Source: Octopus vulgaris
Lineage: Eukaryota
DNA length: 64,000 nucleotides
NCBI GenBank assembly: GCA_951406725.2
Contig: OX597818.1
Location: 136,338,001-136,402,000 of the forward strand
Direction: 5' to 3'
Part shown: positions 4,193 through 64,000 of the stretch, piece after piece
Position numbering within the stretch: the stretch's first letter is position 1
Layout of the letters: every line of letters starts with the position of its first letter
Notes under the pieces: generated by a model
What the model was told of the DNA's origin: nothing
What the model saw: the letters and a program-made list of their open reading frames with translations, nothing else
Database searches by the model: none
Position numbers and translations under genes: made by a program

Positions 4193-4735
4193 GTATGTAT
4201 ATATGTATGTATATGTATGTATGTATATGTATATATGTATGTGTATGTATGTATGTATGTGTATGTATATGTATGTATATGTATGTGTATATGTATGTAT
4301 ATGTATGTATGTGTATATATATGTATATGTATGTATGTATATGTATATATATGTATATGTATATATATATGTATATATATGTATATGTATATATATGTAT
4401 ATGTATATATATGTATATGTATGTATATGTATGTATATGTATGTATATGTATGTATATGCATGTATAAGTGTATATGTATATATGTATATATATATATAT
4501 ATATATATGTATATGTATATATATGTATATGTATATATATGTATATATATGTATATGTATATATATATGTATATGTATATATGTATATGTATATATATAT
4601 GTATATGTATATATGTATATGAATATATATATATGTATATATATATGTATATATATGTATATGTATATGTATATATATATATAAATATATATGTATATGT
4701 ATATATAAATATATATACATATATATATAAATATA
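4118..4735. repeat. (TA)/(TATG) microsatellite tract
   Basis: Directly visible. Confidence 0.95.
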
Positions 4736-4859
4736 ATACTCACATGTGTAGTATGGATTTACGATAGCAAGGAAAAATATATGTTGATAAAATGACAAAA
4801 TGCATAATGAAATCTGAGAATCAAAGGGAGATATATTTTCATCTATCTATTCTTAGTAA

Positions 4860-4902
<43 letters not shown>

Positions 4903-5159
4903 GAGAAAAAGAAACACTTATTTACAATGTCGACACTTGCTGCAAAACGAAAATACACCAACAAAGCAAACAAAAACACAAAATAACAAGTTTGACATCC
5001 ACCATATTACTTTCAGCTTGAGGGGTGGTGGGGTTGGTGGGGGTTGGTGCTGGTGGGGGCAGCAGTAAATAAAGTAAGTTAGCTTTCCATTGTATTGGAG
5101 AGTGTAAAACAATTTGACAATCTCAAAATTACATGTTCTATATGCAATTTGTATTTTAC

Positions 5160-5198
<39 letters not shown>

Positions 5199-6040
5199 CA
5201 CACACACACACATATGTTTGCATGTATATGTATATATGTGTGTATATATGTATATACATGTGCGCGCACTTGTGTGTGTGTGTGAGGCTAGTTTCCAAAG
5301 CAAAGCAGATTGATTTATTCTTTGAATTATGGCAGATAATAAGAGATGGATTCAGGCAAGCTATTCTGGTTTTTCCTATTGATTTCTTGCATTTTCTTAA
5401 ATCAAAGGCTCTATTACATGGCAAAGAAGTTTCCAGCAACATGAGATGATTTTCTTGGAGTTAAAAGAATATTGAAATTAATCTAAATAACATAAAAAAG
5501 GACAGGTGAGAAAACATCTTATTTTGATTTTTGTTTTTTTTCTCTTGTTTTTTTTTAACCTCTTTTCCTTTCTTGTGAAACATGTGGACCTCTGATACAA
5601 TGGAAAATTGTTTGAGCTATTTACATCACAGTCTCAATATTTTGTAGCTTCCTCTGCTCAAAATTGCCAATTTTTATTGTTCCTCTTTGGTGTTTTCTGA
5701 TATAAGGAACTGTATTTATGACATAAAGTGGTTACTACTAAGATAAAAACATGATATGTCTTGAAGCTATATATGAAGAATGTAGAATAGCTAAACTCAA
5801 CAACAAGAGAATAGAAGCAGTTTTAATAAAGAAGATATTAAATTAAAAGAAACCCTCAAGTGTTACAAGAAAAATGTTACATGATTGACAAAACATAACT
5901 GGAAACTAAAATATATTACTTGAGCTAACAAGAAAATCCCAGCATAGTCATAGGCACAGGCATGACTGTGTAGTAAGAAGCTTGCTGCCCAACCACGTGA
6001 TCCTGGGTTCAGTCTTTTGTGAGGTACATTTGGGCAAATT

Positions 6041-11764: not shown

Positions 11765-11850
11765 AGTGAGCAGTTTAGCTTAATGGTAAAGCACTCAGCG
11801 GGAATCTTTGAGAGATATGGGTTCAAGTCCTATGGCTGGTTCTTGACAAA
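11765..11850 (+). mobile_element. tRNA-like head (SINE or tRNA pseudogene) related to 46455-46532
   Basis: gcagtttagcttaatggtaaagcac...gggttcaagtcc provides A and B boxes; no intact cloverleaf. Confidence 0.45.
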
Positions 11851-26602: not shown

Positions 26603-28596
26603 TAAAATGCACCCAGTACACTCTGTTGAGAGGTTGGTGTTAGGAAGGGCATCCAGTTGTAGAAACCTTGCCACAACATATAGTTGGAGTCCTGGACAGC
26701 TCCCTGCTAGGCATTGCCATGTCTAACCATCCAACTTATGTCAGCATAAAATGCACCCAGTACACTCTGTTGAGAGGTTGGTGTTAGGAAGGGCGTCCAG
26801 TTGTAGAAACCTTGCCACAACATATAGTTGGAGTCCTGACCAGCTCCCTGCTAGGCATCGCCATGTCTAACCATCCAACTTATGTCAGCATAAAATGCAC
26901 CCAGTACACTCTGTTGAGAGGTTGGTGTTAGGAAGGGCGTCCAGTTGTGGAAACCTTGCCACAACATATAGTTGGAGTCCTGGCCAGCTCCCTGCTAGGC
27001 ATTGCCATGTCTAACCATCCAACTTATGTCAGCATAAAATGCACCCAGTACACTCTGTTGAGAGGTTGGTGTTAGGAAGGGCGTCCAGTTGTGGAAACCT
27101 TGCCACAACATATAGTTGGAGTCCTGGCCAGCTCCCTGCTAGGCATTGCCATGTCTAACCATCCAACTTATGTCAGCATAAAATGCACCCAGTACACTCT
27201 GTTGAGAGGTTGGTGTTAGGAAGGGCATCCAGTTGTGGAAACCTTGCCACAACATATAGTTGGAGTCCTGGCCAGCTCCCTGCTAGGCATTGCCATGTCT
27301 AACCATCCAACTTATGTCAGCATAAAATGCACCCAGTACACTCTGTTGAGAGGTTGGTGTTAGGAAGGGCATCCAGTTGTGGAAACCTTGCCACAACATA
27401 TAGTTGGAGTCCTGGCCAGCTCCCTGCTAGGCATTGCCATGTCTAACCATCCAACTTATGTCAGCATAAAATGCACCCAGTACACTCTGTTGAGAGGTTG
27501 GTGTTAGGAAGGGCATCCAGTTGTGGAAACCTTGCCACAACATATAGTTGGAGTCCTGGCCAGCTCCCTGCTAGGCATTGCCATGTCTAACCATCCAACT
27601 TATGTCAGCATAAAATGCACCCAGTACACTCTGTTGAGAGGTTGGTGTTAGGAAGGGCATCCAGTTGTGGAAACCTTGCCACAACATATAGTTGGAGTCC
27701 TGGCCAGCTCCCTGCTAGGCATTGCCATGTCTAACCATCCAACTTATGTCAGCATAAAATGCACCCAGTACACTCTGTTGAGAGGTTGGTGTTAGGAAGG
27801 GCATCCAGTTGTGGAAACCTTGCCACAACATATAGTTGGAGTCCTGGCCAGCTCCCTGCTAGGCATTGCCATGTCTAACCATCCAACTTATGTCAGCATA
27901 AAATGCACCCAGTACACTCTGTTGAGAGGTTGGTGTTAGGAAGGGCCTCCAGTTGTGGAAACCTTGCCACAACATATAGTTGGAGTCCTGGCCAGCTCCC
28001 TGCTAGGCATTGCCATGTCTAACCATCCAACTTATGTCAGCATAAAATGCACCCAGTACACTCTGTTGAGAGGTTGGTGTTAGGAAGGGCATCCAGTTGT
28101 GGAAACCTTGCCACAACATATAGTTGGAGTCCTGGACAGCTCCCTGCTAGGCATCGCCATGTCTAACCATCCAACTTATGTCAGCATAAAATGCACCCAG
28201 TACACTCTGTTGAGAGGTTGGTGTTAGGAAGGGCATCCAGTTGTAGAAACCTTGCCACAACATATAGTTGGAGTCCTGGCCAGCTCCCTGCTAGGCATCG
28301 CCATGTCTAACCATCCAACTTATGTCAGCATAAAATGCACCCAGTACACTCTGTTGAGAGGTTGGTGTTAGGAAGGGCATCCGGTTGTGGAAACCTTCCC
28401 ACAACATATAGTTGGAGTCCTGGACAGCTCCCTGCTAGGCATCGCCATGTCTAACCATCCAACTTATGTCAGCATAACATGCACCCAGTACACTCTGTTA
28501 GTTGGAGTCCTGGACAGCTCCCTGCTTGGCATCGCCATGTCTAACCATCCAACTTATGTCAGCATGGAAAGTGGATGTTAAATGATGATGATGATG
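26603..28596 (+). repeat. 144-bp tandem array (13 full units plus one internally deleted unit) derived from an RTE 3' tail
   Basis: atgcacccag recurs at 26607, 26751, 26895 ... 28479; the unit contains ggttggtgttaggaagggcatccagttgt; the array ends in gttaaatgatgatgatgatg. Confidence 0.95.
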
Positions 28597-41685: not shown

Positions 41686-43761
41686 AGACCCAAAATAACG
41701 TGGTGGTGGAACAATATTGTTGACAGGGCTATTAGACAAAAGAAACAGGCTTGGAAGGCCTGGAAGAACGGTGGTAGCAGGGAAGGGTATCAGACTGCCA
41801 GAAGGGAAGCTAGGAGACAGGTCTATCTAGCCAGAGGGGAAGCAGATAAGAGAAAATTTGCCAATGTCCTGCGCCGTGAGGATGAAAGACTTGAGGTATT
41901 TCGTGTTGCAAGACAGTGTGTGAGAGAGAATCGTGATGTGGTAGGAGAGAAATGAGTTCGCATGGAGGATGGTTCACTTGCGCTAAATGAGGATGCAAAG
42001 AGAGAAGCTTGGAGACGCCACTATGAAAGGTTGCTGAATGAGGAAAATGAATGGGATAAAGAGAGTCTGCCGAATGTTGACCCTACAGAGGGACCAGCTA
42101 TCCGAGTTGATAGTTCCGTGGTAGCTAAGGCAATTAGAAGCATGAAGACAGGGAAAGCCCCAGGCCCATCAGGAATTACTGCAGAGATGCTCAAAATATC
42201 TGGCAGTGTCGGCTATAACCTAGTCACCCGTATAGTCAACCAGGTGATACACGAAGGAGTCATACCCAATGACTGGTGCAGCAGCATACTAGTCAACTGC
42301 TACAAAGGTAAAGGTGATGCCCTAGATACAAATAATTACAGAGGTATCAAGCTGTTGGATCAAGTAATGAAGGTTACGGAGAGGGTCATAGCCCAACTAA
42401 TTAGAGAGAGAGTTAGTTTAGATGAGATGCAGTTTGGGTTCGTGCCAGGGAAAAGTACCACTGATGCTATATTCCTGGTAAGGCAGCTGCAGGAGAAATA
42501 CCTAGCCAAAGATAAGCCCCTGTACCTGGCTTTCGTTGACATGGAGAAAGCTTTTGATAGGGTCCCCCGATCCCTTATCTGGTGGTCAATGAGGAAACTA
42601 GGGATAGATGAATGGCTGGTGAGGACTGTGCAAGCCATGTACAGAGATGCCGTAAGTAAGGTTAGGGTTGGCAACATGTACACAGAAGAATTCAAAGTAG
42701 AGGTTGGGGTCCACCAGGGTTCAGTACTCAGCCCCCTCCTATTTATCATAGTACTCCAGGCAATTACGGAGGAATTCAAGACAGGCTGTCCCTGGGAGCT
42801 CCTCTACGCTGACGACCTTGCTCTTATTGCTGAGTCACTATCAGAACTGGAGGAGAAGTTCCAGGTGTGGAAGGAGGGTTTAGAATCAAGGGGCCTTAGA
42901 GTCAACCTAGCTAAAACCAAAGTACTAATAAGTAGAAAGGTAGACAATCCACAAATATCTTCAGGAAGATGGCCCTGCTCGATCTGTAGAAAAGGTGTAG
43001 GTAGAAACTCTATAAGATGTACCCAGTGTAAGCTATGGACACATAAGAGGTGCAGCAATGTCAAAGGTAGGCTAACTGGGAAGATAGTTTTTGTATGTGG
43101 CAGATGCTCGGGAGCATTAACCTCCGAAAATCTGCAGAAAACAACTTCCGTCACTTTCCAGGGGGAAAAACTAGAAGTAGTTGATAGCTTCCGTTATCTA
43201 GGTGACCAAGTCAGTAGTGGGGGTGGGTGCGCTGAAAGTGTAACTGCTAGAATAAGAATAGCCTGGGCAAAGTTTAGGGAGCTCTTACCTCTGCTGGTGA
43301 CTAAAGGCCTCTCGCTCAGAGTAAAAGGCAGACTGTATGATGCGTGTGTACGAACAGCCATGCTACATGGCAGCAAAACATGGGCCGTGACTGCTGAGGA
43401 CATGCGTAAGCTCGTGAGGAATGAAGCCAGTATGCTCCGATGGATGTGTAATGTCAGTGTACATACTCGACAGAGCGTTAGCACCTTGAGAGAAATGTTG
43501 TACCTAAGAAGCATCAGTTGTGGTGTGCAAGAGAGATGATTGCGCTGGTATGGTCATGTGGCGAGAATGGATGAAGATAGGTGTGTGAGAAAGTGCCAAT
43601 CCCTAGCAGTTGAGGGAACCCGTGGAAGAGGTAGACCCAGGAAAACCTGGGATGAGGTGGTGAAGCACGACCTTCGAACTTTAGGCCTCACTGAGGAAAT
43701 GACCAGCGACCGAGACCTTTGGAAATATTCTGTACGTGAGAAGACCAGGCAGGACAAGTGA
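41686..43761 (+). pseudogene. LINE ORF2 reverse transcriptase, one frame with two in-frame TGA stops (41953-41955, 43537-43539)
   Basis: KAPGPSG, NYRGIKLL, QFGF, FVDMEKAFD, GVHQGSVLSPLLF, YADD (42805-42816), FRYLG, RWYGHVARM, RGRPRKTW. Confidence 0.95.
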
Positions 43762-50172: not shown

Positions 50173-50177
50173 CAGAT

Positions 50178-50271
50178 AATATGGAGCGTTTCATGAATTT
50201 GTGTCATCCTCGTGCAGGGGCCATGCTAATCTTCTCTCTATCATTCCAATTTAGTATATGTACTGCTGAAG
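50178..50271 (-). pseudogene. U6: U6 snRNA pseudogene
   Basis: Minus strand cttcagcagtacatatactaaattggaatgatagagagaagattagcatggcccctgcacgaggatgacacaaattcatgaaacgctccatatt aligns to U6; ACAGAGA box mutated to AGAGAGA, first ~7 nt missing, small deletions. Confidence 0.92.
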
Positions 50272-53200
50272 ATTTCGACCGAATTTCCCAGAAGTTGAGA
50301 AATCCTCGGAACTTTGGTCGAAAAGCTCATGGAAAGTTCCGGGGATTTCCCAGGTCCCGGTAAATTTGGTCGAAAACCTCATGGAAAGTTCCGGGGATTT
50401 CCAAGGTCCAGGTAAATTTGGTCGAAAAGCTCATGGAAAGTTCCGGGGATTTCCCAGGTCCCGGTAAATTTGGTCGAAAAGCTCATGGAAAGTTCCGGGG
50501 ATTTCCCAGGTCCCGGTAAATTTGATCGAAAACCTCATGGAAAGTTCCGGGGATTTCCCAGCTCCCGGTAAATATGGTCGAAAAGCTCATGGAAAGTGCC
50601 GGGGATTTTCCAGCTACCAGGAAGTTTGGTCGAGAAGCTCATGGAAAGTTCCGGGGATTTCCCAGGTCCCGGTAAAAGTGGTCGAAAGGCTCATGGAAAG
50701 TTCCGGGGATTTCCCAGGTCCCGGTAAATTTGATCGACAAGCTCATGGAAAGTTCCGGGGATTTCCCAGGTCCCGGTAAAAGTGGTCGAAAAGCTCATGG
50801 AAAGTTCCGGGGATTTCCCAAATCCCGGTAAATTTCGTCGAAAACCTCATGGAAAGTTCCGGGGATTTCCCAGGTCCCGTTAAATTTTGTCGAAAAGCTC
50901 ATGGAAAGTTCCGGGGATTTCCCAGGTCCCGGTAAATTTCGTCGAAAAGCTCATGGAAAGTTCCGGGGATTTCCCAGATCCCGGTAAATTTGGTCGAAAA
51001 GCTAATGGAAAGTTCCGGGGATTTCCCAGGTCCCGGTAAAAGTGGTCGAAAAGCTCATGGAAAGTTCCGGGGATTTCCCAGCTCCCGGTAAATTTGATCG
51101 AAAAGCTCATGGAAATTTGCGGGGATTTCCCAGGTCCCGGTAAATTTGATCGAAAACCTCATGGAAAGTTCCGAGGATTCCCCAGCTCCCGGTAAATTTG
51201 GTGGAAAAGCTCATGGAAAGTTCCGGGGATTTCCCAGGTCCCGGTAAATTTCGTCGAAAAGCTCATGGAAAGGCCCGGGGATTTCCCAAATCCCGGTAAA
51301 TTTCGTCGAAAACCTCATGGAAAGTTCCGGGGATTTCACAGGTCCCGTTAAATTTTGTCGAAAAGCTCATGGAAAGTTCCGGGGATTTCCCAGGTCCCAG
51401 TAAATTTCGTCGAAAAGCTCATGGAAAGTTCCGGGGATTTCCCAGATCCCGGTAAATTTGGTCGAAAACCTCATGGAAAGTTCCGGGGATTTCCAAGGTC
51501 CCGTTAAATTTTGTCGAAAAACTCATGGAAAGTTCCGGGGATTTCACAGGACCCGGTAAATTTGATAGAAAAGCTCATGGAAAGTTCCGGGGATTTCCCA
51601 GGTCCCGGTAAATTTGATCGAAAACCTCATGGAAAGTCCGGGGATTCCCAGTTCCCGGTAAATTTGATCGAAAACCTCATGGATAGTACCGGGGATTCCC
51701 CAGCTCCCGGTAAATTTTGTCGAAAAGCTCATGGAAAGTACCGGGGATTTCCCAGGTCCCGGTAAGTTTGGTCGAAAAGCTCATGAAAAGTTCCGGGGAT
51801 TTCCCAGCTCCCGGTAAATTTGGTCGAAAAGCCCATGGAAAGTTCAGGGGGATTTCCCAGTTACCGGTAAATTTGGTCGAAAAGCCCATGGAAAGTTCAG
51901 GGGGATTTCCCAGTTACCGGTAAATTTGGTCGAAAAGCTCATGGAAAGTTCCGGGGATTTCCCAGGTCCCGGTAAATTTGGTCGAAAAGCTCATGGAAAG
52001 TTCCGGGGATTTCCCATATCCCGGTAAATTTGGTCGAAAAGCTCATGGAAAGTTCCGGGGATTTCCCAGGTCCCGTTAAATTTGGTCGAAAAGCTCATGG
52101 AAAGTTCCGGGGATTTCCCAGATCCCGGTAAATTTGGTCGAAAACCTCATGGAAAGTTCCAGGGATTTCCCTGGTCCCGGTAAATTTGGTCGAAAAGCTC
52201 ATGGAAAGTTCCGGGGATTTCCCAGGTTCCGGTAGATTTCGTCGAAAAGCTCATGGAAAGTTCCGGGGATTTCCCAGATCCCGGTAAATTTGGTCGAAAA
52301 GCTCATGGAAAGTTCTGGGGATTTCCCAGCTCCCGGTAAATTTGGTCGAAAAGCTCGTGGAAACACCCGGGGATTTTTCAGCTCTCGGGGAGTTTGTTCG
52401 AAAAGCTCATGGAAAGTTCCGAGGATTCCCTAGCTCCCGGTAAATTTGGTCGAAAATTTCGAAGGGGATTTCCAAGGTCCAGGTAAATTTGGTCGAAAAG
52501 CTCATGGAAAGTTCCGGGGATTTCCCAGGTCCCGGTAAATTTGGTCGAAAAGCTCATGGAAATTTGCGAGGATTTCCCAGGTCCCGGTAAATTTGATCGA
52601 AAACCTCATGGAAAGTTCCGGGGATTTCCCAGCTCCCGGTAAATTTGGTCGAAAAGCTCATGGAAAGTTCCGGGGATTTTCCAGCTCCCAGGAAGTTTGG
52701 TCGAAAAGCTCATGGAAAGTTCCGGGGATTTCCCAGCTCCCGGTAAATTTGGTCGAAAAGCTCATGGAAAGTTCCGGGGATTTACCAGCTCCCGGTAAAT
52801 TTGGTCGAAAAGCTCATGGAAAGTTCCGGGGATTTCCCAGGTCCCGGTAAATTTGATAGAAAACCTCATGGAAAGTACCGGGGATTTCCCAGCTCACGGT
52901 AAATATGGTCGAAAAGCTCATGGAAAGTTCCGGGGATTTTCCAGCTCCAGGGAAGTTTGGTCGAAAAGCTCATGGAAAGTTCCGGGGATTTTCCAGCTCC
53001 AGAGAAGTTTGCTCGAAAAGCTCATGGAAAGTTCCGGCGATTTCCCAGGTCCCGGTGAATTTGATCGAAAAGCTCATGGAAAGTTCCAGGGATTACCCAG
53101 CTCCCAGTCAATTTGATCGAAAAGCTCATGGAAAGTTCCGGGGGTTACCCAGCTCCCAGTAAATTTAGTCAAAAAGCTCATGGAAAGTTGCGGGGATTTC

Positions 53201-56200
53201 CCAGGTCCCGGTAAATTTGGTCGAAAAGCTCATGGAAAGTTCCGGGGATTTCTCAGGTCCCGGTAAATTCGATCGAAAAGCTCATGGAAAGTTCCGGGGA
53301 TTTCCCAGGTCCCGGTAAATTTGATCGAAAACCTCATGGAAAGTCCGGGGATTCCCCAGTTCCCGGTAAATTTGATCGAAAACCTCATGGATAGTACCGG
53401 GGATTCCCCAGCTCCCGGTAAATTTTGTCGAAAAGCTCATGGAAAGTACCGGGGATTTCCCAGGTCCCGGTAAGTTTGGTCGAAAAGCTCATGAAAAGTT
53501 CCGGGGATTTCCCAGCTCCCGGTAAATTTGGTCGAAAAGCCCATGGAAAGTTCAGGGGGATTTCCCAGTTACCGGTAAATTTGGTCGAAAAGCCCATGGA
53601 AAGTTCAGGGGGATTTCCCAGTTACCGGGAAGTTTGGTCGAAAAGCTCATGGGAAGTTGCGGGGATTTCCCAGCTCCCGGTCAATTTCGTCGAAAAGCTC
53701 ATGGAAAGTTCCGGGGATTTCCCAGGTCCCGGTAAATTTGGTCGAAAAGCTCATGGAGAGTTCCGGGGATTTCCCAGATCCCGGTAAATTTGGTCGAAAA
53801 CCTCATATAAAAAGTTCCGGGGATTTCCCTGGTCCCGGTAAATTTCGTCGAAAAGCTCATGGAAAGTTCAGGTGATTTCCCAGATCTCGGTAAATTTGGT
53901 CGAAAAGCTCATGGAAAGTTCCGGGGATTTCCCAGGTCCCGTTAAAAGTGGTCGAAAAGCTCATGGAAAGTTCCGGGGATTTCCCAGGTCCCGGGAAGTT
54001 TGGTCGAAAAGCTCATGGAAAGTTCCGGGGATTTCCCTGCTCCCGGGAAGTTTGGTCGAAAAGCTCATGGGATGTTCCGGGGATTTCCCAGGTCCCGTTA
54101 AATTTCGTCGAAAAGCTCATGGAAAGTTGCGGGGATTTCCCAGGTCCCGGTAAATTTCGTCGAAAAGCTCATGGAAAGTTCCGGGGATTTCCCATATCCC
54201 GGTAAATTTGGTCGAAAAGCTCATGGAAAGTCCGGGGATTCCCCAGTTCCCGGTAAATTTGATCGAAAACCTCATGGATAGTACCGGGGATTCCCCAGCT
54301 CCCGGTAAATTTTGTCGAAAAGCTCATGGAAAGTACCGGGGATTTCCCAGGTCCCGGTAAGTTTGGTCGAAAAGCTCATGAAAAGTTCCGGGGATTTCCC
54401 AGCTCCCGGTAAATTTCGTCGAAAAGCTCATGGAGAGTTCCGGGGATTTCCCAGATCCCGGTAAATTTGGTCGAAAACCTCATATAAAAAGTTCCGGGGA
54501 TTTCCCTGGTCCCGGTAAATTTCGTCGAAAAGCTCATGGAAAGTTCAGGTGATTTCCCAGATCTCGGTAAATTTGGTCGAAAAGCTCATGGAAAGTTCCG
54601 GGGATTTCCCAGGTCCCGTTAAAAGTGGTCGAAAAGCTCATGGAAAGTTCCGGGGATTTCCCAGGTCCCGGGAAGTTTGGTCGAAAAGCTCATTGAAAGT
54701 TCCGGGGATTTCCCTGCTCCCGGGAAGTTTGGTCGAAAAGCTCATGGGATGTTCCGGGGATTTCCCTGGTCCCGTTAAATTTCGTCGAAAAGCTCATGGA
54801 AAGTTGCGGGGATTTCCCAGGTCCCGGTAAATTTCGTCGAAAAGCTCATGGAAAGTTCCGGGGATTTCCCATATCCCGGTAAATTTGGACGAAAAGCTCA
54901 TGGAAAGTTCCGGGGATTTCCCAGGACCCGTTAAAAGTGGTCGAAAAGCTCATGGAAAGTTCCGGGGATTTCCCAGCTCCCGGTAAATTTGGTCGAAAAG
55001 CTCATGGAAAGTTCTGGGGATTTCCCTGGTCCCGGTAAATTTCGTCGAAAAGCTCATGGAAAGTTCCGGGGATTTCCTAGGTTCCGGTAGATTTCGTCGA
55101 AAAGCTCATGGAAAGTTCTGGGGATTTCCCTGGTCCCGGTAAATTTCGTCGAAAAGCTCATGGAAAGTTCCGGGGATTTCCCAGGTTCCGGTAGATTTCG
55201 TCGAAAAGCTCATGGAAAGTTCCGGGGTTTCCCAGATCCCGGTAAATTTGGTCGGAAAGCTCATGGAAAGTTCCGGGGATTTCCCAGGTCCCGTTAAAAG
55301 TGGTCGAAAAGCTCATGGAAAGTTCCGGGGATTTCCCAGCCCCCGGTAAATTTAGTCCAAAACCTCATGGAAAGTTCCGGGGATTTTCCAGCTCCCGGGA
55401 AGTTTGGTCGAAAAGCTCATGGGAAATTGCGGGAATTTCCCAGCTCCCGGTCAATTTCGTCGAAAAGCTCATGGAAAGTTCCGGGGATTTCTTAGGTCCC
55501 GGTAAATTCCGTCGAAAAGCTCATGGAAAGTTCCGGGGATTTCCCAGATCCCGGTAAATTTTGTCGAAAAGCTCATGGAAAGTTCCGGGGTTTCCCAGGT
55601 CCCGGTAAAAGTGGTCGAAAAGCTCATGGAAAGCTCCGGGGATTTCCCAGGTCCCGGTAAGTTTGGTCGAAAAGCTCATTGAAAGTTCCGGTGATTTCCC
55701 AGCTCCCGGGAAGTTTGGTCGAAAAGCTCATGGAATGTCCCGGGGATTTCCCAGGTCCCGTTAAATTTAGTCGAAAAGCTCATGGAAAGTTCCGGGGATT
55801 TCCCAGATCCCGGTAAATTTGGTCGAAAACCTCATGGAAAGTTCCAGGGATTTCCCTGGTCCCGGTAAATTTCGTCGAAAAGCTCATGGAAAGTTCAGGG
55901 GATTTCCCAGATCTCGGTAAATTTGGTCGAAAAGCTCATGGAAAGTTCCGGGGATTTCCCAGGTCCCGTTAAAAGTGGTCGAAAAGCTCATGGAAACTTC
56001 CGGGGATTTCCCAGCTACCGGTAAATTTGGTCGAAAAGCTCATGGAAAGTTCCAGGGATTTTCCAGCTCCCGGGAACTTTGGTAGAAAAGCTCATGGAAA
56101 GTTCCGGGGATTTCCCAGTTACCGGTAAGTTTGGTCGAAAAGCTCATGGAAAGTTCCGGGGATTTCCCAGGTCCAGGTGAATTTGGTCGGAAACCTCATG

Positions 56201-58100
56201 GAAAGTTCCGGGGATACCCAGCTCCCGGTAAATATGGTCGAAAAGCTCATGGAAAGTTCCGGGGATTTCCCAGGTCCCGGGAAGTTTGGTCGAAAAGCTC
56301 ATTGAAAGTTCCGGGGATTTCCCTGCTCCCTGGAAGTTTGGTCGAAAATCTCATGGGATGTTCCGGAGATTTCCCAGGTCCCGTTAAATTTCGTCGAAAA
56401 TCTCATGGAAAGTTGCGGGGATTTCCCAGGTCCCGGTAAATTTCGTCGAAAAGCTCATGGAAAGTTCCGGGGATTTCCCATATCCCGGTAAATTTGGACG
56501 AAAAGCTCATGGAAAGTTCCGGGGATTTCCCAGGTCCCGTTAAAAGTGGTCGAAAAGCTCATGGAAAGTTCCGGGGATTTCCCAGCTCCCGGTAAATTTG
56601 GTCGAAAAGCTCATGGAAAGTTCTGGGGATTTCCCTGGTCCCGGTAAATTTCGTCGAAAAGCTCATGGAAAGTTCCGGGGATTTCCCAGGTTCTGGTAGA
56701 TTTCGTCGAAAAGCTCATGGAAAGTTCTGGGGATTTCCTGGTCCCGGTAAATTTCGTCGAAAAGCTCATGGAAAGTTCCGGGGATTTCCCAGGTTCCGGT
56801 AGATTTCGTCGAAAAGCTCATGGAAAGTTCCGGGGTTTCCCAGATCCCGGTAAATTTGGTCGGAAAGCTCATGGAAAGTTCCGGGGATTTCCCAGGTCCC
56901 GTTAAAAGTGGTCGAAAAGCTCATGGAAAGTTCCGGGGATTTCCCAGCTCCCGGTAAATTTAGTCCAAAACCTCATGGAAAGTTCCGGGATTTTCCAGCT
57001 CCCGGGAAGTTTTGTCGAAAAGCTCATGGGAAGTTGCGGGAATTTCCCAGCTCCCGGTCAATTTCGTCGAAAAGCTCATGGAAAGTTCCGGGGATTTCTT
57101 AGGTCCCGGTAAATTCCGTCGAAAAGCTCATGGAAAGTTCCGGGGATTTCCCAGATCCCGGTAAATTTTGTCGAAAAGCTCATGGAAAGTTCCGGGGATT
57201 TCCCAGGTCCCGGTAAAAGTGGTCGAAAAGCTCATGGAATGTTCCGGGGATTTCCTAGGTCCCGGTAAGTTTGGTCGAAAAGCTCATTGAAAGTTCCGGT
57301 GATTTCCCAGCTCCCGGGAAGTTTGGTCGAAAAGCTCAAGGAATGTCCCGGGGATTTCCCAGGTCCCGTTAAATTTAGTCGAAAAGCTCATGGAAAGTTC
57401 CGGGATTTCCCAGATCCCGGTAAATTTGGTCGAAAACCTCATGGAAAGTTCCAGGGATTTCCCATGTCCCGGTAAATTTCGTCGAAAAGCTCATGGAAAG
57501 TTCAGGGGATTTCCCAGATCTCGGTAAATTTGGTCGAAAAGCTCATGGAAAGTTCCGGGGATTTCCCAGGTCCCGTTAAAAGTGGTCGAAAAGCTCATGG
57601 AAACTTCCGGGGATTTCCCAGCTCCCGGTAAATTTGGTCGAAAAGCTCATGGAAAGTTCCAGGGATTTTCCAGCTCCCGGGAACTTTGGTCGAAAAGCTC
57701 ATGGAAAGTTCCGGGGATTTCCCAGTTACCGGTAAGTTTGGTCGAAAAGCTCATGGAAAGTTCCGGGGATTTCCCAGGTCCAGGTGAATTTGGTCGGAAA
57801 CCTCATGGAAAGTTCCGGGGATACCCAGCTCCCAGTAAATATGGTCGAAAAGCTCATGGAAAGTTCCGGGGATTTCCCAGGTCCCGGGAAGTTTGGTCGA
57901 AAAGCTCATTGAAAGTTCCGGGGATTTCCCTGCTCCCTGGAAGTTTGGTCGAAAAGCTCATGGGATGTTCCGGGGATTTCCCAGGTCCCGTTAAATTTCG
58001 TCGAAAATCTCATGGAAAGTTCCGGGGATTTCCCAGGTCCCGGTAAATTTCGTCGAAAAGCTCATGGAAAGTTCCGGGGATTTCCCATATCCGGGGATTT
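50272..58100 (+). repeat. 52-bp satellite, about 150 monomers (ggtcgaaaagctcatggaaagttccggggatttcccaggtcccggtaaattt)
   Basis: Period measured directly (ggtcg at 50316 and 50368); variant runs duplicated at offsets of about 677, 1608 and 1708 bp. Confidence 0.97.
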
Positions 58101-59317
58101 TCTTTATCTTTTAGTTAGATGGGAAGTCAGTACCCATGACAGTTATTAGAGTCATTCAGTTTCTTGTTTTGAGAGTTAATCATAAAACATTGCAGCCACA
58201 TCAAGACAGTTAGGATCAGTCAATGCTCATCTGAATCCTGCTTGTAATGCCATTTGTTGTGAAAATCAGTTTAAGGTCAAATGGCAAAGTCATTACAGTG
58301 ATGGGTAGAATACTTTGTGATATTTACTCTAGCTCTCTGCGCTCTGGGTTCAAATCCTGTTGAAGTCAGCTCTGCTTCTTATCCTTTCAGGGTTGATTGG
58401 CAGAACTGTTAGATCAGATAAGAAATGCCTTGCAGTATATTTCTTGGTTCTATGCATTCTGATAGCAATGCTAGCAATACATTGATGCCAAGCTGTATGG
58501 GACTAAGTTGGTAACCTTTTCTCTTGGATAAAAAATCAGTGAAATAGAAAGATGTAACTTTTTCTGACAACAGTTGCAATGACACTGTTGCCAAGGCTAT
58601 ATCGGCCCAAGTCAATGGCCTTTCCCTTGGACAAACATCAATAGCTTAGAGAGAAGAGACTTCCATACATGGACAAGTGCTAGTTTTCATCAAAAAGTCT
58701 TGCACAGACCTGCACAAATATGCACAAATGCATGGTTAATATTGACTGATGGAAGATCAGCCTAGCTACATCTTCAAGTTTTTATTTAGCTAAAGGTAAT
58801 ATCTTCATCTCTATATCTAACAGCTGTGTAAATATATTCTCATAATCTTAGATCCATTCTATTTCTTTAGTGTAAAATTCTCAAGAGAAAAGTATGTTTT
58901 TCCCTTGTAATTCCATTTTTCCAAAATGTCATTCTTTTAAACATCCCACTCGAACATTTGTTCATGTTTGAAGTATAATTATTGCCAAATTTTTGCCTGT
59001 AGTGACCTTAAAGGAAATATATTCTCAATTTCATGCTAAAATTCTCTAATCTCAATTCTCCTATCAACTGATTATAGACTTCCATTGTATTTGTTCACAT
59101 CAAGGTATGGTGACTATTACTGTTGAGAGAATTGATTCAAAGTGAATCCTTGGACACCCTTTTCAGTATAGGTATTTTCTCATCCTCTCAACCTGTCCAA
59201 CTAGTAATCAATACTGAAGTAAGCTGTTATTAATATATTTATTAGTTCTTGTAAACTAGATATCTTTTTCTCATTGCATAATTGTATTTTAGTTCACTTT
59301 TCACACTACATGCTTTA

Positions 59318-59802
59318 TCTATCTATCTATCTATCTATCCACTCAGTCGAAGTCGACTCTCAGTTACTCCATGGATCAGTGTCCTCCAGTCAGTTCTATC
59401 CTGGGCTGCTTCTTTCAGATTTGCTATGTCCATTCTAGTATCACTCTTGATGGTGTCAAGCCAGCGGGTTCTTGGTCGGCCTCTTCCTCTCTTGCCACTG
59501 ACAATTCCGAGCATGATGTCCTTCTCCAGGGATTTTCTCTGCATAATATGACCGAAATATGCCTATCTATGCTTAGTGATCCTTGCTTCTAGCGACATTT
59601 TCGGCCTGATCTGCTTAAGAACTTCTCCATTGGTGAGTCTTGCTGTCCATGGAATCTGTAAAAGTCTTCTCCAACACCAAAGCTCGAATGCATTAATTCT
59701 CTTCTGGTCAGCTTTCTTTAGTATCCAGGTCTCGCATATCCATACGTTGCTATTGGGAAGACAATTGCATTTGGTAGCGAGTCTGATGTCTCTACTCTTC
59801 CA
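59318..59802 (-). mobile_element. BovB-like RTE LINE 3' fragment with (ATAG)n tail
   Basis: RINAFELWCWRRLLQIPWTAR...LEKDIMLG...RGRPRTRWLD...WRTLIHGVTESRLRL. Confidence 0.85.
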
Positions 59803-60687
59803 TAGCATTCAAATTATTCCGTCAAATGTAATACTTTTTCATTCACATTGTTTTGAATTAGCCATTTGTTATTTTGTATCTTCCAGATTTTGATAACGTG
59901 AGTGTTTAATTTTAGAATGAGATTGTAGGTTGGTGTGAGAGGCTGGACATGGTCAGTTTGAACATAAAACATGTAGAATATTTGGGCCAAATATGGCTGG
60001 TTTAAATATTAAATGGTTAAATATATCAGCAGGAACTAGACTGTTGTGTACATGTGGATAGTGTGTTCATTTTGAACAAACATGTGGCTGAGATAACTCT
60101 TCAGTGTTGTCAAAGACAAGATGACCTCTTTAATGCAGGTGCTATGATAAAAGATACTCAACACAGTTTGTAAAAGAATTAGTGATTGATCATTCAGCTT
60201 AACAGTCTGTCTTCTCACCACAAAAATAATTTTAATTAATTTCTTGTGACAGTGGCTTAATTATATTTGCACCAAAATTACTATTTAACTAGCCCTTTAA
60301 ATTTCCACTTCCTTTATTCTCACATCAAAAACTCATACCTTCTTCCAATCACAACTTACACCTTGTTGAAGCTCTAGCTTAAGTTATGCAATTATTGAAA
60401 TTTTCACTAGAAAAAGATATTGGCAACACGTAGATGTATATTTATTGGAATGTCTTCAATATTTTTTTTTTCTATGAGAATGTCTGCAATATTTTATCAG
60501 ATTTTTTTTGCTTTTAGAACTTTACTACAATGCTGCAAATATTAAACATCAATTTCATAAGCTACTATAGCACTTTTACAGAGTCTCTACTTATCAATAC
60601 AGGATTACCATTGCCTATATTGCATAGTCTACAGTTTAGCTTCAAATGTTGTTCACAAAGTTAAGGTTTTTGAGAGAATCACCAATA

Positions 60688-60996
60688 TCATTATCATCAT
60701 CGTCATCGTTTAACGTCCGTTTTCCATGCTAGCATGGGTTGGACAGTTTGACTGGGGTCTGGGAAGTCAGGAGGCTGCACCAGGCTCCAGTCTGATCTGG
60801 CAGTGTTTCTACAGCTGGATGCCCTTCCTAACGCCAACCACTCCATGAGTGTAGTGGGTGCTTTTTACGTGCCACCGGAACAGGTGCCAGGAGCGGCTGG
60901 CAACGGCCACGATTGGTTGGTGCTTTTTACATGCCACCGGCATGGAAGCCAGGCTGGCATCGGCCACATTCGGATGGTGCTTTTTACGTGCCACCG
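60688..60996 (-). mobile_element. RTE 3'UTR fragment
   Basis: Reverse complement of the 44130-44420 type. Confidence 0.85.
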
Positions 60997-61071
60997 AATA
61001 TTATAGAATTTAAATCATAAATCAGATATTAAAATAAACCACCAGTTTTACACTATATATACAAATGCACT

Positions 61072-61288
61072 GGCGGAATTTGAACTCAGAACGTAACGGT
61101 AGCCGTATTTCGTCTGCTGTTACGTTCTGAGTTCAAATTCCGCCGAGGTCGACTTTGCCTTTCATCCTTTCGGGGTTGATAAATAAAGTACCAGTTATGT
61201 ACTGGGGTCGATGTAATCGACTTAATCCATTTGTCTGTCTTTGTTTGTCCTCTCTGTGTTTAGCCCCTTGTGGGCAATAAAGAAATAT
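61072..61288 (+). mobile_element. SINE family B with a fold-back (inverted) 5' end
   Basis: 61072-61102 is the reverse complement of 61114-61144. Confidence 0.85.
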
Positions 61289-61294
61289 ATATAT

Positions 61295-61364
61295 GGCGAC
61301 GGACTTGGTAAACACCTACAAAGTTATCAACCACCTCACCAACAACAACACTGAACACCTTTTT
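61295..61364 (+). mobile_element. short CR1-like fragment abutting the satellite
   Basis: ATDLVNTYKVINHLTNNNTEHLF is homologous to AADLADTHKIINHRTNNNSEHLF in the 34210-34785 element. Confidence 0.7.
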
Positions 61365-62524
61365 CCCTGGTCCCGGTAAATTTGGTCGAAAAGCTCATGG
61401 AAAGTTCCGGGGATTTTGACGGTAAATTTGGTCGAAAACCTCATGGAAAGTTCCAGGGATTTTCCAGCTCCCAGGAAGTTTGGTCGAAAAGCTCATGGAA
61501 GGTTCCGGGGATACCCAGCTCCTGGTAAATATGGTCGAAAAGCTCATGGAAATTTCCGGGGTTACCTAGTTCCCGGTAAGTTTGGTCGAAAAGCTCACGG
61601 AAAGTTCCGGGGATTACCGAGGTCCCGGTAAATTTGGTCGAAAAGCTCATGGAAAGTTCCGTGGAATTTCTATCTCCCGGGAAGTTTGGTCGGAAACCTC
61701 ATGGAAAGTTCCGGGGATTTCCCAGGTCCCGTTAAATTTCGTCGAAAAGCTCATGGAAAGTTCCGGGGATTTCCCAGATCCCGGTAAATTTTGTCGAAAA
61801 GCTAATGGAAAGTTCCGGGGATTTCCCAGGTCCCGGTAAAAGTGGGCGAAAAGCTCATGGAAAGTTCCGGGATTTCCCAGATCCCGGTAAATTTGATCGA
61901 AAAGCTCATGGGAAGTTCCGGGGATTTCCCAGGTCCCGGTAAAAGTGGTCGAAAAGCTCATGGAAAGTTCCGGGGATTTCCCAGGTCCCGTTAAATTTCG
62001 TCGAAAAGCTCATGGAAAGTTCCGGGGATTTCCCATGTCCCGTTAAATTTTGTCGAAAAGCTCATGGAAAGTTCCGGGGATTTCCCAGGTCCCGGCAAAT
62101 TTCGTCGAAAAGCTCATGGATAGTTCCGGGGATTTCCCAGATCCCGGTAAATTTGGTCGAAAAGCTAATGGAAAGTTCCGGGGATTTCCCAGGTCCCGGT
62201 AAAAGTGGTCGAAAAGCTCATGGAAAGTTCCGGGGATTTCCCAGCTCCCGTTAAATTTGATCGAAAAGCTCATGGAAATTTGCGGGGATTTCCCAGGTCC
62301 CGGTAAATTTGATCGAAAACCTCATGGGAAGTTCCGAGGATTCCCCAGCTCCCGGTAAATTTGGTGGAAAAGCTCATGGAAATTTCCGGGGATTTCCAGC
62401 TCCCGGTAAATTTAGTCCAAACCTCATGGAAAGTTCCGGGGATTTTCCAGCTCCCGGGAAGTTTGGTCGAAAAGCTCATGGGAAGTTCCGGGGATTTCCC
62501 AGGTCCCGTTAAATTTTGTCGAAA
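61362..62524 (+). repeat. 52-bp satellite, second block, forward (about 22 monomers)
   Basis: Same monomer; the segment near 62043-62273 closely matches 50880-51110. Confidence 0.95.
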
Positions 62525-64000
62525 ATCACCGGAACTTTCAATGAGCTTTTCGACCAAACTTACCGGGACCTGGGAAATCCCGGAACTTTCCATGAGCTTT
62601 TCGACCACTTTTACCGGGAGCTGGGAAATGCCCGGAACTTTCCATGAGCTTTTCGACAAAATTTACCGGGATCTGGGAAATCCCCGGAACTTTCCATGAG
62701 CTTTTCGACGGAATTTACCGGGACCTAAGAAATCCCCGGAACTTTCCATGAGCTTTTCGACGAAATTGACCGGGAGCTGGGAAATTCCCGCAACTTCCCA
62801 TGAGCTTTTCGACCAAACTTCCCGGGAGCTGGAAAATCCCCGGAACTTTCCATGAGGTTTTGGACTAAATTTACCGGGAGCTGGGAAATCCCCGGAACTT
62901 TCCATGAGCTTTTCGACCACTTTTAACGGGACCTGGGAAATCCCCGGAACTTTCCATGAGCTTTCCGACCAAATTTACCGGGATCTGGAAACCCCCGGAA
63001 CTTTCCATGAGCTTTTCGACGAAATCTACCGGAACCTGGGAAATCCCCGGAACTTTCCATGAGCTTTTCGACGAAATTTACCGGGACCAGGAAATCCCCA
63101 GAACTTTCCATGAGCTTTTCGACGAAATCTACCGGAACCTGGGAAATCCCCGGAACTTTCCATGAGCTTTTCGACGAAATTTACCGGGACCAGGAAATCC
63201 CAGAACTTTCCATGAGCTTTTCGACCAAATTTACCGGGAGCTGGGAAATCCCCGGAACTTTCCATGAGCTTTTCGACCACTTTTAACGGGACCTGGGAAA
63301 TCCCCGGAACTTTCCATGAGCTTTTTTCCAAATTTACCGGGATATGGGAAATCCCCGGAACTTTCCATGAGCTTTTCGAAGAAATTTACCGGGACCTGGG
63401 AAATCCCCGCAACTTTCCATGAGCTTTTCGACGAAATTTAACGGGACCTGGGAAATCCCCGGAACATCCCATGAGCTTTTCGACCAAACTTCCCGGGAGC
63501 AGGCAAATCCCCGGAACTTTCAATGAGCTTTTCGACCAAACTTCCCGGGACCTGGGAAATCCCCGGAAGTTTCCATGAGCTTTTCGACCACTTTTAACGG
63601 GACCTGGGAAATCCCCGGAACTTTCCATGAGCTTTTCGACCAAATTTACCGAGATCTGGGAAATCACCTGAACTTTCCATGAGCTTTTCGACGAAATTTA
63701 CCGGGACCAGGGAAATCCCCGGAACTTTTTATATGAGGTTTTCGACCAAATTTACCGGGATCTGGGAAATCCCCGGAACTCTCCATGAGCTTTTCGACCA
63801 AATTTACCGGGAGCTGGGAAATCCCCGGAACTTTTCATGAGCTTTTCGACCAAACTTACCGGGACCTGGGAAATCCCCGGTACTTTCCATGAGCTTTTCG
63901 ACAAAATTTACCGGGAGCTGGGGAATCCCCGGTACTATCCATGAGGTTTTCGATCAAATTTACCGGGAACTGGGGAATCCCCGGACTTTCCATGAGGTTT
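62525..64000 (-). repeat. 52-bp satellite, inverted block (about 28 monomers, runs off the window)
   Basis: Monomers read gagcttttcgaccaaatttaccgggacctgggaaatccccggaactttccat; colinear in reverse with about 54220-55697. Confidence 0.95.

What the first reader, a model, noticed from the sequence alone, without database searches (positions are those of the whole stretch)
50316..64000. 52-bp satellite that is effectively an array of about 200 NF-kB/Rel consensus sites
Seen: the consensus monomer contains GGGGATTTCCC, preceded closely by the quasi-palindrome GGAAAGTTCC, and some variants read GGGGATTCCCC (e.g. 51691). Established: GGGGATTTCC and GGGATTTCCC both fit the kB consensus GGGRNWYYCC; GGAACTTTCC is one base from the Ig-kappa site GGGACTTTCC; GGGGATTCCCC is the MHC-I H2 kB site. 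By eye, variation concentrates in the caggt and taaattt parts while the kB-like part is mostly retained, and CpGs (two CCGG, one TCGA) persist in an AT-rich background. Inference: the array could act as a Rel-protein sink or an immune-inducible satellite transcription unit, or the match may be incidental.
Basis: partly seen in the sequence, partly recalled or inferred. Interest (0 to 1): 0.75.

Follow-up and report, generated by a model that had tools for sequence, protein, structure and literature searches.

The report
Transposon-borne satellite carrying NF-kB sites
This repeat is one overgrown copy of a short 52-base repeat scattered over many chromosomes, often inside a jumping DNA element; its unit does spell an NF-kB binding site, but the site is rare in the other copies and no better preserved than the bases beside it, so it is likely a by-product, and binding is untested.

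Summary
The array is real: about 201 copies in the window, 461 in the whole 28-kb locus, broken by a 3.3-kb insert and five inversions. 166 of 196 full monomers carry a strict kB match. But the kB positions are no better conserved than the rest (rank 15-25 of 52 windows, p 0.15-0.40). The variant is private to this locus (180 of 181 genome matches), and only 117 of 1,432 monomers in 60 other arrays carry the match. The unit belongs to a dispersed family in this octopus-type genome. 27 of 54 sampled stretches sit in a non-coding hAT-type element (short inverted ends, 8-bp target duplications, captured LINE pieces). This locus keeps that element's right arm, and its edge monomers grade from family type to kB type. 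So a kB-bearing founder monomer likely expanded in place; about 8% of family monomers would be such a founder. Rel binding is plausible (two Rel-domain genes; CpGs not decayed), but the array holds only about 1% of genomic matches. Earlier scan notes describe sibling 'transcription-factor-site' satellites on other DNA; the 52-mer abuts such units, and the unit itself was not found noted.

The parts
50175..50276 (-). U6 snRNA pseudogene abutting the array; its 5' end is replaced by satellite
   Evidence: Rfam RF00026, 78 bits, E 4.4e-18
50267..50315 (-). Inverted relic monomer of family type (6 of 8 diagnostic letters; no kB site)
50308..58095 (+). Main 52-bp array, kB variant, about 150 copies, with multi-monomer duplications
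50435..50444 (+). Example of monomer positions 1-10: broad-consensus Rel-like site, shared with the family
50445..50455 (+). Example of monomer positions 11-21: strict kB site; differs from the family unit at positions 12, 19, 21
51691..51701 (+). GGGGATTCCCC variant (7 of 196 window monomers)
58096..61361 (.). Non-satellite insert. 58098-59317 is a 96% copy, and about 60066-61066 a 92% match, of DNA lying beyond the transposon's right end; also holds common interspersed repeats
61362..62525 (+). Second array block, about 23 copies
62521..64000 (-). Inverted array block. It continues past the window to 68427; further blocks run to 78238 and are followed by the right arm of the hAT-type element, which ends at G000:C5:136418339

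Best explanation
This is one copy of a dispersed 52-bp tandem repeat that likely arrived inside a non-coding hAT-type cut-and-paste element and then likely grew in place, from a founder monomer that happened to carry a kB site, to 23.5 kb of satellite. Steps: (1) the unit occurs in short arrays on many chromosomes, often abutting other short satellites (shown); (2) a 3-9 kb element with short inverted ends and 8-bp target duplications holds one such array between LINE fragments (shown), moved by a hAT transposase in trans (inferred); (3) this locus keeps the element's right arm and has lost the left (shown within the 174 kb searched); (4) unequal exchange and template switching amplified one variant monomer inward from the edge, adding inversions and a copy of flanking DNA (structure shown, mechanism inferred); (5) the kB sites rode along; Rel dimers would probably bind them in vitro, but nothing here shows selection for it (inferred).
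For: Family: matches on many contigs at about 76-81% identity; 192 exact family 21-mers, the first 100 spread over C1-C11. Carrier: 8-bp duplication exact in 7, one mismatch in 3, absent in 1 of 11 two-ended copies chosen by satellite; exact in 7, 7/8 in 4, 6/8 in 1 of 12 two-ended copies chosen by left end. hAT-transposase elements of this genome have the same kind of ends, CAGTGGC/CAGGGGC with 8-bp duplications (9 of 20 loci resolved). The interior has RVT_1 pieces and no transposase in 33 frames. This locus: right arm 90-92% identical to other copies over 2 kb, directly after the array; family-type letters per monomer rise 0,0,1,1,2,3,5,7 and stand at 8 of 8 in the last full monomer. Privacy: 180 of 181 and 38 of 38 exact variant matches lie here. 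No site-specific conservation: 13 of 18 site-keeping and 13 of 15 site-breaking alleles are seen. In other arrays the kB-making change at position 6 is not enriched on the permissive background (odds ratio 1.07), and kB share does not track array length (rho 0.12, 44 arrays, 37 of 65 decoy alleles as high). 8% of family monomers hold a strict site, and two of the three site-making letters are among the family's ten commonest variants.
Against: The longest array found (23.5 kb; next 5.8 kb of 60) is the kB one, a chance of about 0.08. Among carrier copies with this locus included, kB share rises with length (rho 0.41, p 0.04, 25 arrays; 7 of 58 decoys as high; without it rho 0.33, p 0.11). C19 is enriched on G12 in other arrays (odds ratio 2.25, z 3.0), which may be shared descent. 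Gaining a kB site while losing both STAT-type palindromes has probability 0.016 under 9 random changes (post hoc). A 70-73 bp relative holds 3 strict sites at the matching place, so the site may be old. The left arm and left target copy are missing, so the insertion at this locus cannot be proved by a duplication. No autonomous partner was identified. Array samples were picked by likeness to this locus or by a pattern over positions 4-24 and cover only part of the family.
Confidence: 0.72

Rival explanations
1. Factor-driven satellite: the 52-mer is the Rel/STAT member of a set of octopus satellites made of transcription-factor sites, and Rel binding favoured the growth of the variant with two abutting kB sites, giving a signal-responsive platform.
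For: 13 of 27 non-carrier stretches abut other short satellites, several of them like the units in earlier notes. The family unit has two TTCCNGGAA palindromes (STAT-type, recalled motif; 25 of 100,000 shuffles give two, though the unit's two halves are related). Two broad kB sites in 317 of 435 monomers here against 93 of 1,432 elsewhere. No CpG decay. Two Rel-domain genes. Precedent: HSat3 binds TEAD (PMC11526998, abstract and passages).
Against: No excess conservation of kB positions here or of STAT cores across 46 arrays (0.84 against 0.88 for motif-free positions 34-47). About 1,000 matches here against a rough 93,000 genome-wide (17 in 511 kb); HSat3 holds 24-58% of TEAD motifs. One event only. 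No Pfam host-gene domain in 95 low-copy frames of 75 aa or more around the locus (short exons missed).
Confidence: 0.13
2. The kB site is an old feature of a longer 70-73 bp ancestor, brought into this array by exchange with such a repeat rather than built up in place.
For: The 70-73 bp relative at G000:C2:215.46 Mb has 3 strict sites after the same GGAAAGTTCC-type block; the site-making letters are common standing variants.
Against: The change at the array edge is spread over four to five monomers, letter by letter, not one switch; no second array of this variant was found in the assembly.
Confidence: 0.08
3. Centromeric or nucleosome-phasing satellite (52 bp = five helical turns; three units = 156 bp).
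For: Length arithmetic only; largest array of the family found.
Against: 10.4-bp A/T phasing not above shuffles (p 0.19) and folding not above shuffles (z 0.6); only 23.5 kb, interstitial at 136.4 of 147.5 Mb; no large homogeneous family array in the assembly (8 matches at 8 places).
Confidence: 0.04
4. The size and inversions are assembly artefacts.
For: One 873-bp piece of the right arm is duplicated at 100% identity; no laid contig spanned the 5' junction.
Against: The variant is abundant in an independent run of the same organism label and in a run of a second label; inverted blocks differ from their forward partners at several letters; other arrays also hold inversions.
Confidence: 0.03

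Closest known systems
Tetris / TIR-220 of Drosophila virilis (PMC4079207; abstract and section list seen)
   Same: Non-autonomous DNA transposon carrying internal tandem repeats, from which kb-size satellite arrays grew.
   Different: Tetris is a foldback element with the repeats in its long inverted ends; here the ends are about 11 bp, the array is central, and the duplication is 8 bp.
Cg_HINE Helentrons and Helitron-borne satellites of the Pacific oyster (PMC7492417 abstract; PMC8268682 passages)
   Same: Mollusc; short satellite arrays scattered genome-wide as the central part of non-autonomous elements, in element-bound, one-armed and standalone forms.
   Different: The carrier here has inverted ends and 8-bp duplications (cut-and-paste type), and is a patchwork of LINE pieces; half of the arrays lie outside it.
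hAT superfamily, e.g. Tol2/Tel2 (10.64898/2026.01.12.699174; passages)
   Same: Short terminal inverted repeats and 8-bp target duplications.
   Different: No transposase in the carrier; no partner with matching subterminal sequence found.
Human Satellite 3 as a transcription-factor platform (PMC11526998; abstract and passages)
   Same: A satellite whose unit spells a signalling-factor motif.
   Different: HSat3 is megabase-scale, holds 24-58% of TEAD motifs and binding is shown; this array is 23.5 kb, about 1% of matches, binding untested. REL, NF-kappaB and STAT do not occur as whole words in that text.

Membership tests
Non-autonomous hAT-type element (the carrier family) | 8-bp target site duplication | tested here: met
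   At least 7 of 8 letters in 21 of 23 two-ended copies, exact in 14; a few are TA-rich
Non-autonomous hAT-type element (the carrier family) | Short terminal inverted repeats of hAT kind | tested here: met
   Left CAAGGGCCCGG against reversed right CAGTGGCCCAG, 8 of 11 alike; same kind as the ends of hAT-transposase elements here
Non-autonomous hAT-type element (the carrier family) | Autonomous partner with matching ends | tested here: inconclusive
   150 scored PF05699 matches; 20 fetched, none shares subterminal sequence
Non-autonomous hAT-type element (this locus as a copy) | Both ends and a duplication at this locus | tested here: not met
   Right arm and right end present; left arm not found in 174 kb. 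Filed as a one-armed remnant.
LINE-borne (retrotransposed) array | Element ends at the LINE 3' tail | tested here: not met
   Shared sequence runs on past the LINE piece to a sharp inverted end
Helitron/Helentron-borne satellite | No 8-bp duplication (recalled) | tested here: not met
   8-bp duplications present; carriers of the non-hAT arrays were not analysed
kB element | Match to GGGRNWYYCC / GGR(3-5)YCC | tested here: met
   355 of 435 strict; 419 of 435 broad (consensus)
Functional Rel-binding platform | Site conserved above the rest of the unit | tested here: not met
Functional Rel-binding platform | Rel binding or occupancy; induction of transcripts | not testable with these tools
   No binding data were available
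Centromeric satellite | CENP-A occupancy | not testable with these tools
   Indirect signs negative

The most novel reading that the evidence does not exclude
Octopus genomes hold a set of satellites built from signalling-factor sites; the 52-mer is its immune (STAT plus Rel) member, a hAT element spread it, and at this locus a switch from STAT sites to a tandem pair of kB sites let Rel binding drive the largest expansion of the family, creating an immune-responsive platform shared by two related species.
Probability: 0.12. Interest if true: 0.72.

Novelty: new member of a known kind. Interest (0 to 1): 0.3.

Why it matters
As it stands, this is a clear case of a satellite being born: carrier, ancestral edge and derived interior are all readable at one locus, and about 60 sister arrays give built-in controls. 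It is also a negative control for the idea in earlier scan notes that protein binding shapes octopus satellites, since for this unit the tests found no such signal. If Rel occupancy were shown to be specific to this array, it would be a natural test of whether a transcription factor can drive satellite growth.

Tried and rejected
LINE-retrotransposed array or U6-LINE chimera: suggested by the YADD-coding flank, rejected when the shared sequence ran on to an inverted end with 8-bp duplications. Hairpin or cruciform unit: folding z 0.62 and -0.07. Nucleosome phasing: p 0.19. Inversions at one palindromic point: 13 joints fall at varied positions, 0-7 bp ambiguous at this locus. GC-biased conversion making the G/C runs: 6 of 7 changes go AT to GC, p 0.10-0.22; spread variants elsewhere are not GC-biased; inconclusive. 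STAT sites fall with array length (rho -0.61), but so does likeness to the family unit in general (STAT windows rank 2 and 10 of 52); not used. Expression: no RNA holder listed; no evidence either way. Nearby genes: 1 of 95 frames hit Pfam, a DDE_3 piece. A 24-residue flank peptide hit nothing in Pfam; longer frames gave RVT_1. One search translated the wrong strand; one search corrected it. The per-array motif counts count one site up to three times; per-monomer counts replace them. No weight-matrix scan was run (no library at hand), and the motif identity of neighbouring satellites was not tested against shuffles. Paper searches for an octopus 52-bp satellite, a hAT carrier or a kB satellite (listings only) showed none; subscription papers and repeat databases were not searched, and no supplements were read.

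Full report
Setting. The window is G000:C5:136338001-136402000 of a 2.8-Gb, 227-contig animal genome. I take it for an octopus from its repeats and from earlier notes on this genome; this is an inference.

Observation. Tandem Repeats Finder gives period 52 at 50313-58087, 61362-62525 and, on the other strand, 62523-64000: about 201 copies. The locus continues to 78238 in window numbering, with 461 monomers in 8 blocks, 23,543 bp of satellite and five strand switches. 166 of 196 full window monomers and 355 of 435 in the locus hold a strict GGGRNWYYCC match (consensus as in PMC12883533, passages and one section read). Monomers with more than 3 gaps or insertions were dropped before these counts (435 of 446 full ones kept).

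Conservation. But positions 11-21 are not special: 0.956, 0.950 and 0.929 (window, locus, 238 distinct monomers) against 0.966, 0.961 and 0.949 for positions 39-52; rank 15, 20 and 25 of 52 windows; permutation p 0.15-0.40. Of the possible single changes in the site, 13 of 18 that keep it and 13 of 15 that break it are seen. The 200 copies are one origin: a dinucleotide shuffle of the unit has a strict site 10% of the time. CpGs show no extra C-to-T decay (0.018 against 0.033 here; 0.069 against 0.068 in the family), which suggests the repeat is unmethylated in the germ line (inference).

Family. Relatives at about 76-81% identity lie on many contigs. The family unit differs from this one at 9 positions, three of them in the kB site (GAGGATTTTCT). 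In 60 other arrays of 83-5,763 bp, 117 of 1,432 monomers have a strict site, 100 of them at positions 1-10, and 2 of 53 arrays have one in their majority unit. The variant is private: 180 of 181 exact 20-mers and 38 of 38 exact 39-mers lie in this locus. The sample is partial (92 of 192 matches and 263 of 413 were not listed) and biased towards likeness at positions 4-24.

Carrier. Array flanks are shared between chromosomes. They end sharply at ...GGGCCACTG and begin at CAAGGGCCC.... The flanking 8 bases match exactly in 7 and with one mismatch in 3 of 11 two-ended copies. Of 30 more copies picked by the left end alone, 12 had both ends (7 exact, 4 at 7/8, 1 at 6/8) and 7 carried the 52-mer; with the 6 known before, 13 of 36. 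The exact right end occurs 91 times. The interior is LINE reverse-transcriptase pieces, a SINE-like piece and the array, with no transposase in 33 frames. hAT-transposase elements here end in CAGTGGC/CAGGGGC with 8-bp duplications (9 of 20 resolved), as Tol2 has short inverted ends and 8-bp duplications. No partner with matching subterminal DNA was found. 26 of 54 array stretches have carrier sequence within 150 bp, and L061, a two-ended copy, makes 27.

This locus. The array is followed by the carrier's right arm (90-92% over 2 kb), part of it twice. The left arm is absent from 174 kb searched. The last monomers before the arm carry 0, 0, 1, 1, 2, 3, 5, 7 and 8 of 8 family letters, and the inverted relic at 50267-50315 carries 6. 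So the edges are ancestral and the interior derived. The monomers that first turn to the local type already hold a strict site, so the expansion likely began from a kB-bearing founder; 8% of family monomers would qualify. The insert at 58096-61361 is partly a 96% copy of DNA beyond the right end, and joints show 0-7 ambiguous bases, which fits template switching (inference). A U6 pseudogene abuts the left edge.

Other samples. Four contig sets were laid on 50262-50435 (4 of 24 runs listed). The local letter at position 47 makes up 28% of summed depth in a second study of organism A, 56% in organism B, 3% in C and 2% in D; contigs at least 99% alike number 16 of 261, 62 of 365, 3 of 159 and 0 of 143. 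Depth is not copy number, but the family is in all four labels and the variant is amplified in A and B. It is therefore not peculiar to one assembly.

Could Rel matter? For: two Rel-domain genes with an RFRYxCE loop; two broad sites in 317 of 435 monomers against 93 of 1,432 elsewhere; the longest array found is the kB one; kB share rises with length among carrier copies when this locus is included (rho 0.41, p 0.04; 7 of 58 decoys as high); C19 goes with G12 elsewhere (odds ratio 2.25); a 70-73 bp relative has 3 strict sites. Also, 13 of 27 non-carrier stretches abut other short satellites, of the sort that earlier notes call transcription-factor-site mosaics, and the family unit holds two STAT-type palindromes (recalled motif) that this variant has lost (7 of 435 against 539 of 1,432 monomers). 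Against: no excess conservation of kB positions here or of STAT cores in 46 arrays (0.84 against 0.88); no enrichment of the site-making change at position 6 (odds ratio 1.07) or of C21 on G12 (0.95); no length effect over all 44 other arrays (rho 0.12); and about 1,000 matches here against a rough 93,000 genome-wide, where HSat3 holds 24-58% of TEAD motifs (PMC11526998). The claim in earlier notes that spreading variants avoid the sites was not borne out for this unit.

Comparison. It works like Tetris/TIR-220 (PMC4079207, abstract) and oyster Cg_HINE elements (PMC7492417, abstract; PMC8268682, passages): a non-autonomous element scatters short arrays and one grows. PMC6947457 (passages) reviews cut-and-paste dispersal of tandem repeats, and PMC5139131 (abstract) reports mollusc satellites next to transposon pieces and other satellites. 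The carrier passes the hAT-type tests on ends and duplication; this locus is a one-armed remnant. I found no paper on this repeat in six searches (listings only), and no earlier scan note on it by sequence, words or place.

Verdict. Real array, real motif, origin explained, function unsupported. New member of a known kind; interest 0.3. The factor-driven reading remains open at about 0.12.

Noticed in passing
window 50175-50276 (-): U6 pseudogene fused at its 5' end to an inverted family-type monomer; origin of the fusion unexplained.
   Followed up: partly
L021, L025, L031, L033, L037, L038, L044-L046, L056, L058, L067, L014: The 52-mer abuts 34/35-, 22/23-, 13-, 59-, 10/20- and 63-bp satellites in mosaic blocks; by eye several spell factor sites (recalled, untested).
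   Followed up: partly
L021:1620-2500 (G000:C2:215.46 Mb, near the contig end): Diverged 70-73 bp relative with a doubled 21-bp block and 3 strict kB sites; possible ancestor of the 52-mer.
   Followed up: partly
L064, L076: Independent rise of strict kB sites at monomer positions 1-10 to 20-24% of monomers in two long carrier-borne arrays.
   Followed up: partly
L091-L093 (G000:C4:124.54-124.57 Mb): A carrier copy spanning 26.7 kb between its ends with a 7/8 duplication and no 52-mer; content not examined.
   Followed up: no
L125-L127, L132, L134; L128, L129: Two young-looking hAT families (about 3.8 kb with frames up to 720 aa; about 2.8 kb with 632 aa) with intact ends and 8-bp duplications.
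   Followed up: partly
window 26603-28499: Unrelated 144-bp tandem repeat, 13.2 copies at 98% identity.
   Followed up: no
window 41956-43539 (+): 527-aa LINE frame with RVT_1 and a PHD-like stretch.
   Followed up: partly
window 11769-11841 (+): tRNA-like match, 36 bits, probably a SINE head.
   Followed up: no
L014:6600-6950: Telomere-like CCCTAA units embedded in a 52-bp array at an interstitial site.
   Followed up: no
L012:967-1839 and 4362-5234: 873 bp of the right arm duplicated at 100% identity: a very recent duplication or an assembly repeat.
   Followed up: no
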